Assembly: GCA_023898345.1 (NCBI GenBank)
Contig: CP060218.1
Span: 767,777-831,776, forward strand
DNA: 64,000 nucleotides
Reading direction: 5' to 3'
Source: Candidatus Woesearchaeota archaeon
Lineage (GTDB): Archaea > Nanobdellota > Nanobdellia > Woesearchaeales > UBA583
Position numbers and translations under genes: made by a program. Below, in pieces: positions 1-6,041 of the stretch. Under the pieces are notes generated by a model, which was not told the DNA's origin, made no database searches, and saw only the letters and a list, made by a program, of their open reading frames with translations. Every line of letters begins with the position of its first letter. Within the stretch, counting starts at the first letter, position 1.

Positions 1-905
1 CTAAAAATTTAATCGAATTATTAAAAATAGATTTAATTCGAAATTATGAAACTAGAGAGGAAAATAGTAATTTATTAAAAGGAAAACTATTAATGTCAAA
101 ACATTTAAGATATAATTTATTTAATAAAGCTAAATTCTATTCTCAGTTTGATGAGTTCACAGAAGATAATTCACTTAACAAAACATTTAAGTTAACTATT
201 GACAAATTACTCAAATTTACTCAAAATTCAAAAAATTTTAAATTACTAACAGAATGTAATTTAATCCTTCAAGATGTTACATTAAATAAGCTTTCAATTA
301 ATGATGTTGAAAAAGTTAAATTTACAAGATTAAATAAACAATATGAGAATATATTCAACTTAGCAAAATTATTATTATTTGAAAATTCCATAGATTTAAA
401 TTCTAAAGACACTAAAACATATTCATTAATGTTTGATATGAATAAATTATTTGAGGAATTTATTTTTGAATTTATAAGAAGAAATTTTCAATTTAGATTT
501 GAAAATATTCAATCAGAAAAACCTCAAAAATATTTATTTATAGATTCGCCTAAATTTATTTTAAAACCAGATATAACTATTAATTGTAATAAAGATAATT
601 GTGAATTAATAATTGATACTAAATACAAAAAAGTTAATGATATAAAATCTGACAAATATGGAGTTTCAAGAGAAGATGTCTATCAAATGTTTGTTTATTC
701 AAAAGTATATAACTGTAAAAATATAATCTTATTATATCCTAAATATGAAAAAGAGATAGAAAACGTAGTGTTTGAATCAGAATTTAATTTCAAACTTCAT
801 ATTAAAACTGTAGATTTACATATAGATTTAATAAAAGACAAAGAGAAATTAAAAAGAGAATTAAATACACTATTAAACATAATCCAAAATGACATTAAAC
901 AATAA
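1..905 (+). CDS. PD-(D/E)xK nuclease, McrC-like C-terminal region (5' partial; frame open to window start)
   Basis: ORF 93..905 has no in-frame stop upstream to position 3; motif PDITIN...ELIIDTKYK resembles the PD-(D/E)xK core of McrC-type subunits; 17-nt overlap with the downstream helicase gene. Confidence 0.4.
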   Translation, partial: KNLIELLKIDLIRNYETREENSNLLKGKLLMSKHLRYNLFNKAKFYSQFDEFTEDNSLNKTFKLTIDKLLKFTQNSKNFKLLTECNLILQDVTLNKLSINDVEKVKFTRLNKQYENIFNLAKLLLFENSIDLNSKDTKTYSLMFDMNKLFEEFIFEFIRRNFQFRFENIQSEKPQKYLFIDSPKFILKPDITINCNKDNCELIIDTKYKKVNDIKSDKYGVSREDVYQMFVYSKVYNCKNIILLYPKYEKEIENVVFESEFNFKLHIKTVDLHIDLIKDKEKLKRELNTLLNIIQNDIKQ

Positions 906-3900
906 CCAAAAAAAAGCAGTTGAAAAGATAAAAGGACCAACTATAGTTCTAGCTGGAGCAGGTACAGGTAAAACTTACACAATAGTAGAAAAAGTAAAGC
1001 ATCTTGTTGAATCAGGTGAATATAAACCTGAAGAAATTTTATGCCTAACCTTTTCAAATGAAGCTGCAAACTCTTTAAAAAATAAAATACAAGAAGGGTT
1101 GAAATCTTTTAAAGTGCCAACTGTTAGAACTTTTCATGGTTTTTGTTTAGATATTCTAAAAGAAGATTCAAACTTACTAAACATAGACAACGGTTTTGAT
1201 ATTCTTCTACCTGATGATGCTAAAGTATTAATGCACAGAGAATTAAACATCTCACCTTATTGGTCTAATAGATATGTATCAACTATATCAAATGCTAAAG
1301 ATTTTGGAATAGAAAAAGTAAAGATAGAAGAATACTTCTTAAAAATAAAGGAACACTTAGCACAAAACTATGATATAAACAATATCGACGAAATAGCAAA
1401 AGAGAAAGAGTTCGACCTAAATACAATTCATCTAGAACCAAATACTAAAGAGATAAGAGCATACAAAAAAGAGATCAAAGAGTTCTTAGAGTTATACAAA
1501 GAGTACGAATCATTTAAAGAGTTTCTTCAAGTCTGGGATGATTTTGAACAATTAAAAAAAGATAAAAACTTTTTAGACTATGGAGATCTAAATCATTTTG
1601 TTTTACATTTATTTAGAAAATTTGGAGCAGATAAGTATACAGATAGATATAAACATGTAATTATAGATGAATTTCAAGATACAAATAAAGTCCAATTTGA
1701 ATTAATAGAACATATTGCAATAGATCACAAAAACATAACAGTAGTAGGAGATCCAAATCAGAGTATTTATGGATTTAGAGGTTCATATAAAGAGAGCTTT
1801 AATCATTTCATGAAAACTTACAATGCAACTGAAAAAGATGAAGTTAAATTAGAAGAGTCCCACAGGTCTACAAATAGAATATTAAATATTGCTCATGATT
1901 TAATTAAAAATAATTATGAGAATCAAGAAGAATGTTTTAAGACATTTAATGCAGAAAAACACGAAGGAAAAAAAGTTAAAATAATTGAGTCTGTTAATAT
2001 GGCAGAAGAAGCAAGAGTAATTGCTGACATAGTTGAAGAAAAATTAAAACAAGGAACTATTGCAAAAGATATATGTATTTTATTTAGAACTCACCGGCAA
2101 GGAGATTACCTAAAAGAGTATTTAAGTTCAAGAAATATTCCTCTAGCTCAAGCAGGAAAGACTAATCTTCTAAACAAAAGAGAGATTAAAACTACTATTT
2201 GCTATCTCTCAATGTTAAACAATCTAGTAACAAGAACTGCAACAGGAGAGCAAGGTTTATGGTCTTTATTTCATTATAAAAACTTTCTTTCAATGGAAGA
2301 CTCATTAAAAATAGGAAGATATCTTAAGAAGAACAAAGACAAATCTATTGATGAAATATTAATGTTTGCAATTAAAGAGTTAGACTTAACTCAAAGTTCA
2401 ATTAAGATAATTAAAAATATTTTAAGTAAGATAAGAGAACTTCACAAGAGATCAAACTTGCCTCTTGAAGAGTTAGTTTTAGAGATATATGAAATTACAG
2501 GATTAAATAGAGCTTTCTCATATCAAAGAACTAATGAGAATGTTGAAGCTTTAATGAATCTTAAGAAATTTTATGATATTGCAAAATCTTTTAGAGAGTT
2601 TCATGGAGATAACTTAAACAACTTTATAGATTATTTAGAAGTATTAAGAGAACTAGGAGTATCAATTGATGCAAGTGAAATTAAAAATGATAATGCTGTA
2701 AGATTTATGACTATTCATGCATCAAAAGGTTTAGAGTTTGAGACTGTAATCGTCTCAAATTTAGCTGAGAAAAGATTTCCAGTATCAAGAACTCAAAATG
2801 AACCTCTAATTCCAAAAGAGTTACTTCCAGACTTAAAACTTTATTTAGAAAAAAAAGGAGAATTAACAGATAAAGAGAAAGAAGATGTAATTAAGAATTA
2901 CGAAAAAGAGATGCTTTTAATTGAGGAAAGAAGGCTCGCTTATGTTGCATTTACAAGAGCAAAAAATGAATTAATATTAACATTTGCAAGAAGTTATGAT
3001 AAAAATCCTGATTCAAATGAAGAGTCTATATTTTTACAAGAGATAGGTTATGATAATTGGAACTCATCTGAAGAGAAAATAGAAAATGAAAATTTAGAAT
3101 ATATTAAAGATGAACAAGAATTAAATACTTCAGTTGCACCAACTTCTCCAAAAGATAAATTATTAGATATTTTAAAGAAACAGATAGTTGAGAGTTTAGA
3201 TAGTGATGATATTAATACTATATTAGATAATATTTCGCAATATAGGACAGTTAAAGAAGAAAAAATAGTTAATCTAAACAAGATGTCAGAAAAAGATTTA
3301 AATAATCTAATTGAGAAGGCTAAGACTAATTTCTCTGGATTAAAATTTGACAAATCTATGATAACACTATCACCATCTGCTTTAATAGATTATAGCGAAT
3401 GTCCAAAAAAATTTGAATTATCAAGAATACTACAAATGCCTCAAAAAAATCAATTTTCTGATGATACTGATGCAGCATCTATTGGTTCATTTGTTCATCA
3501 AGTATTAGAAGATGGAGTAAATAATAAATTCAAATCTGAAAAAGAGTTCTTAGAACACTCTAAAGAGCTAATGAAAAAAGAAGAGTATGAAGGAATGCCT
3601 CAAGATGAAGTTGAGACAATGATTAAAGTATTCTGGCTCAGAAACAAAAATAAATACAATGATAAGTCGCAAACAGAGATTGGTCTATCTATGGAACTTG
3701 ATGGCTTTAAATACTTTGGACTAGCAGATAGAGTAGATGAATTAGAAGATGGAACACTTGAAATTGTAGATTACAAATCTAATAAATCAGCAGTTGATAC
3801 TAAAAAAAGAAATTATCAATTAGGTTACTATGCAATTGCATGTAGAGAATCTATGAAAAGAGAACCATCTAAATTAACTCTTGAAATGTTAAAGTTAGAT

Positions 3901-4113
3901 AAACCTTTAGAAATGTTTGTTGAAGGAAATATTGTAAAAGGTCCAGATGGTAGAACAAAGCCATTTAATCTTGATGAACTAAAAGAAGAATTTAAAATGT
4001 TAGCAAATAAAATTGCAAAAGATTTTGAAAGCGAGTTTAAAGTGAGTGATAATGAGAATGCCTGTAGGTTTTGCGGACTTAAATTTTATTGTCCAAAATA
4101 TAGTGAGGATTGA
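889..4113 (+). CDS. SF1 UvrD/Rep-type helicase fused to C-terminal RecB/Cas4-like PD-(D/E)xK nuclease with Cys cluster
   Basis: Walker A LAGAGTGKT, Walker B VIIDEFQD, C-terminal EIVDYKSNK, QLGYYAIAC and CRFCGLKFYCPKY motifs in the 1074-aa translation. Confidence 0.75.
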   Translation: MTLNNNQKKAVEKIKGPTIVLAGAGTGKTYTIVEKVKHLVESGEYKPEEILCLTFSNEAANSLKNKIQEGLKSFKVPTVRTFHGFCLDILKEDSNLLNIDNGFDILLPDDAKVLMHRELNISPYWSNRYVSTISNAKDFGIEKVKIEEYFLKIKEHLAQNYDINNIDEIAKEKEFDLNTIHLEPNTKEIRAYKKEIKEFLELYKEYESFKEFLQVWDDFEQLKKDKNFLDYGDLNHFVLHLFRKFGADKYTDRYKHVIIDEFQDTNKVQFELIEHIAIDHKNITVVGDPNQSIYGFRGSYKESFNHFMKTYNATEKDEVKLEESHRSTNRILNIAHDLIKNNYENQEECFKTFNAEKHEGKKVKIIESVNMAEEARVIADIVEEKLKQGTIAKDICILFRTHRQGDYLKEYLSSRNIPLAQAGKTNLLNKREIKTTICYLSMLNNLVTRTATGEQGLWSLFHYKNFLSMEDSLKIGRYLKKNKDKSIDEILMFAIKELDLTQSSIKIIKNILSKIRELHKRSNLPLEELVLEIYEITGLNRAFSYQRTNENVEALMNLKKFYDIAKSFREFHGDNLNNFIDYLEVLRELGVSIDASEIKNDNAVRFMTIHASKGLEFETVIVSNLAEKRFPVSRTQNEPLIPKELLPDLKLYLEKKGELTDKEKEDVIKNYEKEMLLIEERRLAYVAFTRAKNELILTFARSYDKNPDSNEESIFLQEIGYDNWNSSEEKIENENLEYIKDEQELNTSVAPTSPKDKLLDILKKQIVESLDSDDINTILDNISQYRTVKEEKIVNLNKMSEKDLNNLIEKAKTNFSGLKFDKSMITLSPSALIDYSECPKKFELSRILQMPQKNQFSDDTDAASIGSFVHQVLEDGVNNKFKSEKEFLEHSKELMKKEEYEGMPQDEVETMIKVFWLRNKNKYNDKSQTEIGLSMELDGFKYFGLADRVDELEDGTLEIVDYKSNKSAVDTKKRNYQLGYYAIACRESMKREPSKLTLEMLKLDKPLEMFVEGNIVKGPDGRTKPFNLDELKEEFKMLANKIAKDFESEFKVSDNENACRFCGLKFYCPKYSED

Positions 4114-4114
4114 A

Positions 4115-4519
4115 ATGGCATTTAAAGAAGAATTACATTTTATTTTTTTGGGAATCTCAACAATATTAACATCATTTTTATTAGATTATTTATTTAATTA
4201 TGCTGAGATTTATTCGAAAATAAATTCAATTATTGCATTAGTATTATTTGGTTTGTTCTTAATTTTTATGACTAAACTAGTTTTGTTTCCAATAACAGCT
4301 TATTTTAATAAATTATTTTTACCTAAAGGATATAAATCAAGAAAATATCTTGATATTAATAATGATTTTAATCTACCAAGCACATCTATTATTACAATAT
4401 TTATTATAGATAATGTTTCAAGTTTATATTCATTAGATTATATTTATTTAGTTATTTTAGTTATTCCTATATTTTTAATAATTCATTATCTAAATGAAAA
4501 TTTCGAGATATATAGTTAA
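4115..4519 (+). CDS. Small integral membrane protein, hypothetical
   Basis: ATG at 4115 directly after helicase stop; multiple hydrophobic helices in translation. Confidence 0.4.
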   Translation: MAFKEELHFIFLGISTILTSFLLDYLFNYAEIYSKINSIIALVLFGLFLIFMTKLVLFPITAYFNKLFLPKGYKSRKYLDINNDFNLPSTSIITIFIIDNVSSLYSLDYIYLVILVIPIFLIIHYLNENFEIYS

Positions 4520-4578
4520 TCATGTTCATATTGATAAATGAACTCTAAAAAAATTATAGATGGTATGTAAAATAAAAT

Positions 4579-4761
4579 TCAAAACTCCAACAAATAAAAA
4601 CCTAAAGCACTTTTACCAATAATTGTGCATTCTAAAAATTTCTTTTTTAGTAAGTTTGGATTTATTCCCTTAGCAGAAACTCTAAAAGTCTCATATTTGT
4701 CATTTAAGAGGAATTTTCCTCTCTTCTCAGATTCAAATTCCATATATTTTGTCGTTTTCAT
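4579..4761 (-). CDS. Hypothetical small protein (60 aa)
   Basis: ORF only; position between membrane protein and integrase. Confidence 0.2.
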   Translation of the reverse strand: MKTTKYMEFESEKRGKFLLNDKYETFRVSAKGINPNLLKKKFLECTIIGKSALGFYLLEF

Positions 4762-4897
4762 AATATTCTAAAATTTGGTTATTTTTAACACTTTGCAAAG
4801 ACTATTAACTTCAATTTAAGCGATTTACACTCAAAATAATGAGAGAAATATTTCAAAACAAGTCTTAGTCTTAAAATGTCAAAAAAGTCTTCAAATA

Positions 4898-5809
4898 TCA
4901 ATGTCTAATCACCTCCAACACTTTTTCATATTCTTTTACTGCAATCTCTTTTTTATTTAAATAATGAGTCATCCCAACATTTTTTGAAGTTGACCTTCCA
5001 GATATGAAGTTTGCTATTTCAATTGCAACTCCTGCTTTAACCATTAAAGTAAATGAATACTTTCTTAGATACTTTAAATGAACTATTTTCTTATTATCTT
5101 GGGTATGATCTACAAATCTATTGAAGTATGTTTTATCAAATTTACCAATATGTTCTTTTAATTCATTATATAATTCTAATGTAAAGAATAGATAATAAGA
5201 TGATTTCTGACCTCTTAAATAGAAATTATTGTAAGTAACTATGCCGTTTTCATGTATTTCTATGTTCTTTTCATCAAAATTTTCAAAGAAATGTTTAACT
5301 TCTGTTGTCCTAGCTGTTGTTTCAATATAGAATCTATATAATAAATAATGTAATCTATCATATTTAGATACTTCTTTTACAGAGTTTTTAATCTCCAAAC
5401 ATGTAGGAATATAAGTATCAATATGAACTTCATTGTGAATTTTAATTCTTCTTCGGATGTTTTCAATTATATCTAAGTCTAATATATCAAACTCTTCTAA
5501 GTAATTCAGCCATACTCTAATTGCAACTCCTCCTTGTCTTTTGTTAATTTTTTCAAGAGCAATAGCATTTTTAATCTCTTCAATGGTATTAACACTAATC
5601 TCTTCAAACAATTTAGTTAGACAATTAAAAACAGATACTGCGTAAGTTCTTGTGAACTTTTTTAAAGTATATACTTTATATTCATTTTTTGTCTTAAAGT
5701 ATATACTTTTTAATTCTATAAAATTTTGATTTTTTGGCGTAAAATTTTCTAAATTTTGAGAAATTTGCTGTTGATTAGAAATTTGTGAGGAGGCGTATTT
5801 GCCCCCTAG
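4898..5809 (-). CDS. Tyrosine recombinase / integrase (N-terminus uncertain)
   Basis: C-terminal HLKYLRKYSFT...GRS...GMTHY resembles the H-x-x-R ... Y catalytic region of tyrosine recombinases; track ORF runs on to 5980 through the tRNA, which is unlikely to be coding; no in-frame ATG after the tRNA, first TTG is much further in. Confidence 0.55.
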   Translation of the reverse strand, partial: LGGKYASSQISNQQQISQNLENFTPKNQNFIELKSIYFKTKNEYKVYTLKKFTRTYAVSVFNCLTKLFEEISVNTIEEIKNAIALEKINKRQGGVAIRVWLNYLEEFDILDLDIIENIRRRIKIHNEVHIDTYIPTCLEIKNSVKEVSKYDRLHYLLYRFYIETTARTTEVKHFFENFDEKNIEIHENGIVTYNNFYLRGQKSSYYLFFTLELYNELKEHIGKFDKTYFNRFVDHTQDNKKIVHLKYLRKYSFTLMVKAGVAIEIANFISGRSTSKNVGMTHYLNKKEIAVKEYEKVLEVIRH

Positions 5810-5812
5810 AGA

Positions 5813-5894
5813 CGCCAAGACTGGGATTTGAACCCAGAATTCCGAAGGAACTACATTAGCAGTGTAGCGCAATACCGAGTTATGCGATCTTGGC
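5813..5894 (-). tRNA. tRNA-Ser (anticodon GCU)
   Basis: Manual fold of minus strand: acceptor GCCAAGA/TCTTGGC, anticodon stem CTACA/TGTAG, loop CTGCTAA, long variable arm TTCC..GGAA, T-arm CTGGG-TTCAAAT-CCCAG, discriminator G. Confidence 0.8.
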
Positions 5895-5923
5895 ATTAGG
5901 TCTCTTTTTTTAGTCGCCGCCGG

Positions 5924-5958
5924 ATTAGCAGTGCTGCGCAATACCGAGTTATGCGACC
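5924..5958 (-). repeat. Partial duplicate of tRNA-Ser 5' half (32/35 identical to 5855-5889)
   Basis: Direct repeat attagcagtg(ct/ta)gcgcaataccgagttatgcga(c/t)c about 30 bp 5' of the tRNA on the same strand. Confidence 0.6.
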
Positions 5959-6041
5959 TCAGCTCGATGAAGATAAACAAGTAAACTTGCTATCAAAAAG
6001 TGATAAGCCAAATCTCTTTTAAAAGATTTTGCTTCTTCCCT

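What the first reader, a model, noticed from the sequence alone, without database searches (positions are those of the whole stretch)
1..4113. Overlapping McrC-like nuclease and helicase-nuclease genes, possible defence cargo
A PD-(D/E)xK nuclease whose frame is open to the window start overlaps by 17 nt a 1074-aa SF1 helicase with a RecB/Cas4-like nuclease domain and 4-Cys cluster. Both lie next to the integrase. The pairing suggests a restriction-like or other anti-MGE module, with the partner (for example a McrB-like GTPase) upstream outside the window.
Basis: inference. Interest (0 to 1): 0.5.

Follow-up and report, generated by a model that had tools for sequence, protein, structure and literature searches.

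The report
McrBC restriction operon with helicase-nuclease
The window opens inside a three-gene anti-virus operon (McrB, McrC and a DNA-unwinding, DNA-cutting enzyme) on a 22.7-kb mobile island in a tiny DPANN archaeon; both parts are known kinds, but this coupling has not been described in the papers I could search.

Summary
Bases 3-905 encode the C-terminal 300 residues of McrC. It overlaps by 17 nt a 1074-aa UvrD/PcrA-type helicase fused to a Cas4/AddB-like nuclease with four conserved cysteines. The source contig (Candidatus Woesearchaeota MAG, 2 mismatches in 14.1 kb) shows the predicted partner: an 822-aa McrB GTPase overlapping mcrC by 8 nt. The operon is therefore mcrB-mcrC-helicase/nuclease.

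It is cargo of a 22,668-bp low-GC insertion that split a tRNA-Ser gene. The two halves rejoin in silico into a perfect tRNA. The insertion also carries two archaeal integrases, a Type I restriction-modification system and a replacement tRNA-Ser.

The helicase-nuclease belongs to the UvrD-Cas4 fusion family, already predicted in 2017 to be an ancillary defence component. In DPANN metagenomes it behaves as a gene-sized cassette. A copy sharing 88% nucleotide identity sits behind GmrSD and before Cas12a. Other copies follow GmrSD, an Argonaute or methyltransferases. A related McrBC operon carries an AddAB-like pair in the same position, and another close McrBC relative has no helicase.

The most likely role is processing or degrading the DNA ends made by McrBC, which is inferred and not shown. 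I rate it a new variant of known kinds, of moderate interest.

The parts
1..905 (+). 3' part of mcrC (frame 3, codons from nt 3; last 300 of 424 residues). The full gene and mcrB lie upstream, outside the window.
   Evidence: Pfam PF10117 E=2.6e-57. The full-length gene in L001 8743-10017 scores PF10117 E=5.6e-76. T. gammatolerans McrC 6ut5_G matches at E=3.6e-34.
564..629 (+). McrC PD-(D/E)xK catalytic motif (KPD ... IDTKYK).
   Evidence: Motif positions. It aligns to the TgMcrC 'KPD...LDAKYR' motif.
889..905 (+). 17-nt overlap of the mcrC stop region with the helicase start codon, suggesting translational coupling.
889..4113 (+). 1074-aa UvrD/PcrA-type SF1A helicase fused to a Cas4/AddB-like PD-(D/E)xK nuclease (UvrD-Cas4 fusion family).
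   Evidence: Pfam. NCBIfam pcrA 1.2e-92 and addA 5.6e-53, both below the equivalog cut-offs. AF2 model pLDDT 81.5. Foldseek finds PcrA 3e-36, AddA 7e-35 and AdnB at TM 0.55.
955..975 (+). Helicase Walker A motif (GAGTGKT).
   Evidence: Invariant in alignment A1.
1666..1680 (+). Helicase Walker B / motif II (DEFQD).
3397..3411 (+). First cysteine of the predicted 4-Cys Fe-S 'iron staple' (ECPKK, Cys838).
   Evidence: Invariant C838. Position.
3724..3831 (+). Nuclease catalytic motifs: ADRVD (D947), IVDYKSNK (D961, K963) and QLGYY (Q977, Y981).
4063..4098 (+). C-terminal CxxCx5C cysteines (Cys1059, 1062, 1068) completing the 4-Cys cluster.
4046..4519 (+). 157-aa hydrophobic ORF of unknown function (gene call 4052-4519), overlapping the helicase 3' end. 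It is not conserved in related loci.
   Evidence: No Pfam hit. No relatives in the other loci.
4579..4761 (-). 60-aa ORF of unknown function.
4898..5818 (-). Archaeal tyrosine integrase (int2). Its frame stays open through the tRNA up to 5980 and has no ATG start, so it may be the C-terminal part of a split SSV-type integrase.
   Evidence: PF16795 4.3e-26. It is 34% identical to int1 at the other end of the island. Frame analysis.
5811..5895 (-). Intact tRNA-Ser(GCT) carried inside the insertion.
   Evidence: ARAGORN. Rfam RF00005, 56 bits.
5924..5959 (-). 5' half of the ancestral tRNA-Ser gene that the island split. The 9-bp core ATTAGCAGT at 5924-5932 marks the right junction of the 22,668-bp insertion.
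   Evidence: Repeat D1, alignment. Joining it to the left half (L171:1318-1372) gives a perfect tRNA-Ser(GCT) in ARAGORN.

Best explanation
The window begins inside a three-gene, translationally coupled operon, mcrB-mcrC-helicase/nuclease. The operon is cargo of a 22.7-kb integrative island in a Candidatus Woesearchaeota (DPANN) genome.

**Shown:**
- The gene identities.
- Intact catalytic motifs in all three proteins.
- The overlapping gene junctions.
- The island and its boundaries.
- The helicase-nuclease recurs as a gene-sized cassette next to DNA-cutting defence genes.

**Inferred mechanism:**
1. McrB hexamers bind foreign, probably modified, DNA through an N-terminal domain of unknown fold.
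2. With McrC they translocate on GTP, and McrC makes a double-strand break.
3. The UvrD-Cas4 enzyme then loads on the new ends, unwinds 3'->5' and degrades the DNA. RecBCD or AddAB does this after restriction in bacteria, and these archaea are thought to lack it (general knowledge about archaea, not checked in this genome).
4. A single cut thereby becomes irreversible destruction of the invader.
For: **Gene identities and motifs.**
- McrC.
- McrB, found upstream in the same contig.
- Helicase-nuclease.

**Operon structure.** The overlaps are 8 nt (mcrB/mcrC) and 17 nt (mcrC/helicase).

**The arrangement recurs.**
- A second genome, GCA_964351975.1, has the same McrB-McrC-helicase-integrase layout, with 69% helicase and 55% McrC identity.
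- A related McrBC operon (McrC 61% identical) carries a non-orthologous AddB-like plus AddA-like pair overlapping mcrC in the same position.
- A third lineage has the helicase 1.5 kb upstream of McrBC.

**Cassette behaviour.** blastn homology between L001 and L091 (87.7%) covers exactly the helicase gene and nothing else. In L091 the gene is flanked by GmrSD and Cas12a.

**Tightly linked upstream partners elsewhere.** These are GmrSD (three contexts), pAgo, a ResIII helicase and an Eco57I-type methyltransferase.

**Neighbour census against a control.**
- Within +-2 genes, 143 non-redundant proteins: GmrSD_N 6, McrBC 3, AAA_5 4, Cas12a 2.
- Genes 5 or more positions away in the same loci: none of these families reaches 2 members.

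**Literature.**
- Hudaiberdiev et al. 2017 (PMC5704561) predicted an ancillary defence role for UvrD-Cas4 fusions next to Type III restriction-modification systems and Dcm.
- The McrBC census of Bell et al. 2024 (PMC11090510) notes frequent McrBC-Type I restriction-modification linkage, as seen here.
Against: - The coupling is facultative. Only 3 of 39 helicase clusters (at 90% identity) have McrBC nearby.
- The McrBC closest to L008's has no helicase and sits among housekeeping genes.
- Many helicase loci show no recognisable defence neighbour.
- The family is strongly conserved (45-55% identity, uniform length) across DPANN phyla. That also fits an autonomous repair enzyme.
- Nothing here shows co-transcription, physical interaction or activity.
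- The neighbour census used a crude ORF caller and reports family counts only. The type IV enrichment rests on about 9 proteins against 2 or fewer.
- The McrB target-recognition domain could not be identified.
Confidence: 0.55

Rival explanations
1. The helicase-nuclease is an autonomous recombination or repair enzyme, the DPANN counterpart of AddAB/AdnAB. Its position next to McrBC and other defence genes reflects compact genomes and insertion hot spots, not a shared function.
For: - High conservation, uniform length and intact motifs across more than 100 DPANN clusters.
- AddA/AdnB/RecB-like fold.
- Many loci lack a recognisable defence neighbour.
- A close McrBC relative functions without it.
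Against: - Here it lies inside a mobile island of foreign GC content (28% against 37% for the host).
- Its start codon lies inside mcrC.
- Homology between contexts stops exactly at the gene ends.
- Type IV enzymes are concentrated within +-2 genes and absent from the distal control.
- There is no conserved synteny with core genes.
Confidence: 0.2
2. The helicase-nuclease is a stand-alone defence gene, a single-protein nuclease-helicase immunity factor or a DNA-end sensor like GajB. It merely co-resides with McrBC in a defence island and acts independently.
For: - It occurs with many different neighbours and sometimes alone.
- PADLOC's best hits are the UvrD-like GajB and DRT helicase models.
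- Cassette-like mobility.
Against: - Overlapping or single-digit-nucleotide junctions with the upstream defence gene occur in at least 8 contexts.
- A two-subunit AddAB-like enzyme replaces it in the same slot of a related McrBC operon, which argues for a role tied to that operon.
- The PADLOC hits cover only the generic helicase core, and no GajA-like partner is present.
Confidence: 0.18
3. The helicase serves the mobile element itself, as a PcrA-like replication or recombination helicase. It would compensate for the decayed MCM gene of the island.
For: - The island retains only a 65-aa MCM winged-helix remnant.
- The related element in L008 has a 345-aa MCM.
- PcrA is the closest solved helicase.
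Against: - Most family members are not in elements with integrases or MCM.
- There are no close relatives in 2.9 million viral contigs.
- The fused Cas4-like nuclease and the defence-gene neighbourhoods are not explained.
Confidence: 0.05

Closest known systems
McrBC type IV restriction system (E. coli K-12; Thermococcus gammatolerans McrBC structures 6ut3/6ut5)
   Same: - McrB AAA+ GTPase with Walker A/B and the canonical NxxD motif.
- McrC with DUF2357 and a PD-DxK nuclease.
- Overlapping mcrB-mcrC genes.
- Linkage to a co-oriented Type I restriction-modification system, as in the E. coli 'immigration control region' and as noted by Bell et al. 2024.
   Different: - A third gene, the helicase-nuclease, is translationally coupled to mcrC.
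- McrB has a ~345-aa N-terminal region with no recognisable domain.
- McrB also has a ~150-aa insertion inside the GTPase domain.
UvrD-Cas4-like fusion proteins of the pfam12705 branch (Hudaiberdiev et al. 2017, PMC5704561)
   Same: Same architecture: a UvrD-like SF1 helicase plus a Cas4-like PD-(D/E)xK nuclease with 4 Cys. Found in mesophilic archaea, in defence neighbourhoods, and predicted to be ancillary.
   Different: The published contexts are Type III restriction-modification systems (Mod/Res) and Dcm/Vsr. Here the partners are type IV enzymes (McrBC, GmrSD), pAgo, Type IIG-like methyltransferases and Cas12a neighbourhoods. No held paper links the family with McrBC. Monophyly with the published clade was not tested.
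AddAB / AdnAB / RecBCD helicase-nucleases
   Same: The fold and domain order match AddA and AdnB (Foldseek E=7e-35, TM 0.51-0.55). The Cys-flanked nuclease resembles AddB. Bacterial RecBCD degrades DNA after restriction (established knowledge).
   Different: It is a single polypeptide with no partner subunit in the locus. Scores are far below the NCBIfam equivalog cut-offs (addA 180 against 708 bits). It is encoded in a mobile defence island, not a repair locus. A true two-subunit AddAB-like pair does occur in the related L173 operon.
CoCoNuT systems (McrBC-derived, with the CnuH helicase; Bell et al. 2024, PMC11090510)
   Same: McrB and McrC homologues operonically linked to an SF1 helicase and extra nucleases. 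CARF-type regulators and a Type I restriction-modification system lie in the same superoperon.
   Different: - The GTPase motif is NxxD, not NxD.
- No Pfam domain of any kind was found in the McrB N-terminal region, and coiled coils were not specifically assessed.
- The helicase is UvrD-like (SF1A), not UPF1-like.
- McrC has an intact nuclease.
- CoCoNuTs are nearly absent from archaea.
Gabija (GajA + GajB)
   Same: GajB is a UvrD-like helicase. PADLOC GajB models hit the helicase core.
   Different: No GajA (OLD-type ATPase-TOPRIM) is adjacent, and GajB lacks the Cas4-like nuclease domain.

Membership tests
McrBC type IV restriction system | McrB-like AAA+ GTPase with Walker A, Walker B and the NxxD signature | tested here: met
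   Upstream gene in the source contig (L001 6282-8750) carries GPPGTGKT, LIIDEINR and MNTSD. Pfam finds AAA_5 and McrB_lid. T. gammatolerans McrB 6ut3 matches at E=6e-71.
McrBC type IV restriction system | McrC with the DUF2357/McrBC domain and a PD-(D/E)xK nuclease motif | tested here: met
   PF10117 matches over 1-318 of 318 positions at E=5.6e-76 for the full gene. The KPD...DTK motif is present. TgMcrC matches at 3.6e-34.
McrBC type IV restriction system | mcrB and mcrC adjacent in one operon | tested here: met
   8-nt overlap, same strand.
McrBC type IV restriction system | N-terminal McrB domain that recognises modified bases | tested here: inconclusive
   No Pfam domain at E<=5. The homologue search returned nothing. 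The AF2 single-sequence model is unusable, with pLDDT 43.
McrBC type IV restriction system | GTP-dependent cleavage of modified DNA | not testable with these tools
   Needs biochemistry.
UvrD-Cas4-like fusion family (pfam12705 branch) | N-terminal UvrD-like SF1 helicase with intact motifs | tested here: met
   PF00580 1.9e-64 and PF13361 3.6e-46. Walker A and DEFQD are invariant.
UvrD-Cas4-like fusion family (pfam12705 branch) | C-terminal PDDEXK_1 nuclease with D, D/ExK, QxxxY and four Cys | tested here: met
   PF12705 6.1e-28. D947, D961, K963, Q977, Y981 and C838/1059/1062/1068 are conserved.
UvrD-Cas4-like fusion family (pfam12705 branch) | Monophyly with the clade described in 2017 | not tested
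   No tree was built with the published members.
AddAB / RecBCD / AdnAB | Heteromeric enzyme with a second helicase-nuclease-like subunit encoded alongside | tested here: not met
   There is a single gene here, and neither neighbour is AddB/RecC/RecD-like. The L173 relative does have such a pair.
AddAB / RecBCD / AdnAB | Reaches the curated equivalog score | tested here: not met
   addA_Gpos scores 180 bits against a cut-off of 708. recB scores 129 against 696.
CoCoNuT | NxD variant of the McrB signature motif | tested here: not met
   The motif is MNTSD, which is NxxD.
CoCoNuT | UPF1-like CnuH helicase | tested here: not met
   The helicase is UvrD/PcrA-type.
Gabija | GajA OLD-family ATPase-TOPRIM nuclease next to GajB | tested here: not met
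   No such gene occurs in the locus.
tRNA-integrated archaeal genomic island | Tyrosine integrase plus insertion in a tRNA gene with flanking direct repeats | tested here: met
   Two PF16795 integrases are present. The 9-bp repeat ATTAGCAGT occurs at both junctions. The two tRNA halves rejoin into a perfect tRNA-Ser(GCT).

The most novel reading that the evidence does not exclude
The UvrD-Cas4 helicase-nuclease is a universal plug-in 'post-cleavage' module of DPANN archaea. It would be a gene cassette that recombines behind whichever double-strand-breaking effector a lineage carries (McrBC, GmrSD, Argonaute, restriction-modification enzymes). It would supply the RecBCD-like degradation that these reduced genomes lack. 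Where it abuts Cas12a loci, it might also feed degradation products into CRISPR adaptation.
Probability: 0.3. Interest if true: 0.65.

Novelty: new variant of a known kind. Interest (0 to 1): 0.45.

Why it matters
Type IV restriction by McrBC is usually treated as a two-protein machine whose cut products are cleared by host RecBCD. DPANN archaea have tiny genomes and are not expected to have RecBCD. A defence operon that brings its own end-processing helicase-nuclease would explain how a single cut becomes lethal for the invader. The same cassette, or an AddAB-like substitute, recurs behind McrBC, GmrSD and Argonaute. That gives a concrete, testable case of modular 'effector plus degrader' defence design. 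It also extends the 2017 prediction for UvrD-Cas4 fusions to type IV systems. If the coupling is not functional, the locus is simply an ordinary defence island.

Tried and rejected
- **Genome-contig scan with the full helicase alignment.** The tool chose generic UvrD motifs and returned only bacterial UvrD genes at ~25% identity (L011-L090).
- **Viral contig scan.** Only two distant hits (24-26% identity), so the family is not typically viral.
- **McrB N-terminal domain.** Pfam at E<=5 found nothing. The homologue search with the N-terminus alone returned nothing, not even itself. The single-sequence AF2 model had pLDDT 43 and was discarded.
- **GC content as evidence that the helicase cassette was recently inserted into the operon.** The helicase is ~27-28% GC in every context while its neighbours are 20-24%. 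GC3 differs little. The difference probably reflects protein conservation, so the argument was dropped.
- **CoCoNuT and Gabija membership.** Both were considered and rejected on defining features.
- **SSV-type split integrase.** The 78-aa ORF at the left end has no similarity to the N-terminus of the other integrases. The idea rests only on reading-frame continuity.
- **PADLOC.** It has no model that recognises this McrC.
- **Plasmid tblastn.** It gave one full-length but distant hit, at 25% identity.


Full report
**1. Observation**

Frame 3 of the plus strand is open from base 3 to the stop codon at 903-905. The 300 encoded residues match Pfam McrBC (PF10117) at E=2.6e-57 over profile positions 72-318 of 318, so the gene start lies outside the window. 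The PD-(D/E)xK motif is intact: KPD at nt 564-572 and IDTKYK at 612-629.

ORF 889-4113 encodes 1074 residues and overlaps the McrC frame by 17 nt. It carries three Pfam domains: UvrD-helicase (1.9e-64), UvrD_C (3.6e-46) and PDDEXK_1 (6.1e-28). In an alignment of 16 family members, the following are invariant or nearly so:
- Walker A and DEFQD in the helicase.
- D947, D961-x-K963 and Q977/Y981 in the nuclease.
- Cys838, Cys1059, Cys1062 and Cys1068.

An archaeal integrase (PF16795) lies at 4898-5818 on the minus strand and abuts tRNA-Ser(GCT) at 5811-5895. Bases 1-5500 are 21-28% GC, against about 37% for the rest of the window.

**2. Upstream extension**

An exact-protein look-up of the helicase found the source contig, GCA_020637525.1 JACJVU010000001.1. 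NCBI names the organism Candidatus Woesearchaeota archaeon. The contig differs from the window by 2 mismatches over 14,113 nt.

Upstream lie the full 424-aa McrC and an 822-aa McrB, which overlaps mcrC by 8 nt. McrB has Walker A (GPPGTGKT), Walker B (LIIDEINR) and the canonical NxxD signature (MNTSD). Its best solved relative is Thermococcus gammatolerans McrB (6ut3, E=6e-71). McrC's best solved relative is TgMcrC (6ut5_G, 3.6e-34).

The unit is a three-gene operon with overlapping junctions.

**3. The island**

A further extension (L171) shows the following, from left to right:
- A 3' half of a tRNA-Ser-like gene.
- A 78-aa ORF.
- Integrase int1.
- RhuM.
- HsdR, DUF6290, HsdS and two HsdM-like genes (a Type I restriction-modification system).
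- A divergent CARF-like/winged-helix regulator (HFX_2341_N, Csa3_N, MarR).
- A GIY-YIG protein and small membrane proteins.
- A 65-aa MCM winged-helix remnant.
- mcrB, mcrC and the helicase.
- Two small ORFs, integrase int2 and the intact tRNA-Ser.

Just beyond the intact tRNA, at window 5924-5959, lies a copy of the 5' half of a tRNA-Ser. I joined this 5' half to the left-hand 3' half (L171:1318-1372) at their shared anticodon-loop core (plus strand ATTAGCAGT). ARAGORN calls the join as a perfect tRNA-Ser(GCT) with fully paired acceptor and anticodon stems.

An ancestral tRNA-Ser gene was therefore split by a 22,668-bp insertion spanning window coordinates -16735 to 5932. The insertion brought its own tRNA-Ser. 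This settles 'defence cargo of a mobile element'. DNA to the left of the insertion is also low in GC, so the wider region may be a composite island.

**4. What the helicase-nuclease is**

By sequence it is closest to PcrA, UvrD and Rep. It scores well below the equivalog cut-offs for AddA and RecB. An AlphaFold2 model built with the 16-sequence alignment has pLDDT 81.5 and pTM 0.73. Its best Foldseek matches are PcrA (3e-36), full-length AddA (7e-35, TM 0.51) and AdnB (TM 0.55 normalised by query length, 0.76 by target length), followed by AddB and RecB.

The protein search found more than 100 full-length relatives at 45-55% identity, mostly from DPANN archaea (Woese-, Nano-, Pace- and Micrarchaeota), and 38% relatives in Methanoperedens.

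The architecture is the 'UvrD-Cas4-like fusion' described by Hudaiberdiev et al. 2017 (PMC5704561). They found it next to Type III restriction-modification systems or Dcm/Vsr and predicted an ancillary role in several defence systems.

**5. Is the link to McrBC real?**

*From the helicase side.* A metagenome scan with the nuclease-domain alignment gave 61 loci in 39 clusters at 90% identity.
- McrBC is adjacent in the window's lineage and in L008. L008 comes from a different genome (helicase 69% identical) and has the same McrB-McrC-helicase-integrase layout.
- McrBC is also adjacent, in a different order, in L139/L140.

In other loci the tightly linked upstream gene is one of the following:
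- GmrSD in L007, L091 and L112.
- A GmrSD_N protein plus an unknown 611-aa protein in L096.
- A pAgo in L105 (PADLOC 1e-40).
- A ResIII helicase in L101.
- An Eco57I-type methyltransferase plus an unknown protein in L109.

The helicase of L091 is 87.7% identical in DNA to the window's. The homology begins 3 nt before the start codon and ends 1 nt after the stop. Its neighbours are GmrSD upstream and Cas12a downstream. The gene therefore behaves as a cassette.

A Pfam census of 143 non-redundant proteins within +-2 genes is headed by these families:

| Family | Members |
|---|---|
| GmrSD_N | 6 |
| N6_Mtase | 4 |
| Eco57I | 4 |
| GmrSD_C | 4 |
| AAA_5 | 4 |
| McrBC | 3 |
| ResIII | 3 |
| Cas12a domains | 2 |
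| AIPR | 2 |
| C5 methylase | 2 |

A control set of 143 proteins lying 5 or more genes away in the same loci has no GmrSD, McrBC or Cas12a among families with 2 or more members. Methyltransferases and ResIII occur in both sets.

*From the McrC side*.
- L173 (McrC 61% identical) has McrB-McrC followed, with overlapping starts, by an 881-aa AddB-like protein, a 941-aa AddA/RecB-like protein and then Cas12a. This is a non-orthologous helicase-nuclease in the same slot.
- L174 has McrBC alone among housekeeping genes, although its McrC is the closest relative of L008's.
- L176 has McrBC plus an unknown 626-aa protein.

The coupling is therefore recurrent, and partly independent in origin, but facultative.

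**6. Mechanism**

*Shown:* three intact enzymes in one overlapping operon on a mobile island, and a helicase-nuclease that recurs beside enzymes which break DNA.

*Inferred:* McrBC recognises and cuts foreign DNA. The UvrD-Cas4 enzyme then engages the ends and degrades them, as RecBCD or AddAB does after restriction in bacteria. That last point is established knowledge, not tested here.

Rival explanations are an autonomous repair enzyme, an independent stand-alone defence gene, and an element-maintenance helicase. They are listed with their evidence in the Rival explanations section.

The specificity of McrB remains unknown. Its N-terminal 345 residues have no recognisable domain and could not be modelled.

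**7. Comparison and novelty**

The locus is a bona fide McrBC system of the canonical NxxD branch. It is not a CoCoNuT, because it has the NxxD motif, a UvrD-type helicase and an intact McrC nuclease. It is not Gabija, because no GajA is present.

The McrBC census paper lists Type I restriction-modification systems, DISARM-like cassettes and methyltransferases as partners, but no UvrD, RecB or AddA partner. No held paper mentions McrBC together with UvrD-Cas4.

This is therefore a new combination, or variant, of two known kinds. It is not a new kind of system.

**8. Verdict**

Gene identities and island structure are certain. The functional coupling is probable (about 0.55) and unproven. Interest is moderate (0.45).

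Noticed in passing
window 5811-5959 and L171:1318-1372 (window -16786 to -16732): An ancestral tRNA-Ser(GCT) gene is split at its anticodon loop into a 5' half (right end) and a 3' half (left end) by the 22.7-kb insertion. The insertion carries a complete replacement tRNA-Ser(GCT) 28 nt from the right half. The more usual arrangement restores the tRNA with an element-borne 3' part.
   Followed up: yes
window 4898-5980 (-) and L171:1309-1545 (-): The int2 reading frame stays open through the intact tRNA and the right half-tRNA and has no ATG. A 78-aa ORF with a ribbon-helix-helix-like N-terminus reads in the same frame through the left half-tRNA. In an excised circle the two would fuse into one ORF of about 380-410 aa, as in SSV-type split integrases. 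No sequence homology supports this.
   Followed up: partly
window 5658-5677 and 5694-5712; L171:1546-1565: The palindromic, TATA-like motif TTTTTTAAAGTATATACTTT occurs twice near the 5' end of int2. It occurs once between the divergent 78-aa ORF and int1 at the other end of the island. It may be a shared promoter or operator, or an integrase arm site.
   Followed up: partly
L091:10826-14737, L111:2603-6475, L173:7920-9428: Cas12a (type V-A) genes lie directly beside the UvrD-Cas4 helicase in L091 and L173 and two genes away in L111. All three contigs are low in GC, and their organisms were not identified. In L091 the helicase sits between GmrSD and Cas12a.
   Followed up: partly
L001:3988-4608 (-) (window about -5125 to -4505); L008:1524-2129 (-); L179:4510-5109: A CARF-like (HFX_2341_N/Csa3_N) plus winged-helix regulator is encoded divergently upstream of the McrBC-helicase operon in both related islands. 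A Csa3 gene also lies near the distant homologue on Methanomethylovorans plasmid pMETHO01. This hints at ligand-controlled expression.
   Followed up: no
L001:6040-6237 (window about -3073 to -2876); L008:3233-4270: A 65-aa ORF just upstream of mcrB matches only the C-terminal winged helix of archaeal MCM. The related island in L008 has a 345-aa MCM there. The element's replicative helicase is apparently decaying.
   Followed up: no
L001:7560-8000 (inside mcrB; window about -1553 to -1113): This McrB clade has a ~150-residue insertion between the EGIKP segment and Walker B of the GTPase domain. It is conserved among relatives and has no Pfam match. It may be one of the specificity inserts mentioned in the McrBC census paper.
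   Followed up: partly
L096:5761-7596, L121:3-308, L134:3508-4503: An uncharacterised protein of about 611 aa, with no Pfam, NCBIfam or PADLOC hit, recurs three times immediately next to the helicase-nuclease. In one case it follows a GmrSD_N protein. It is a candidate further partner.
   Followed up: partly
L171:10001-12978 (window about -8104 to -5126): The Type I restriction-modification system of the island has two tandem HsdM-like methyltransferase genes (497 and 493 aa) after HsdS. A DUF6290 (antitoxin-like) gene lies between HsdR and HsdS.
   Followed up: no
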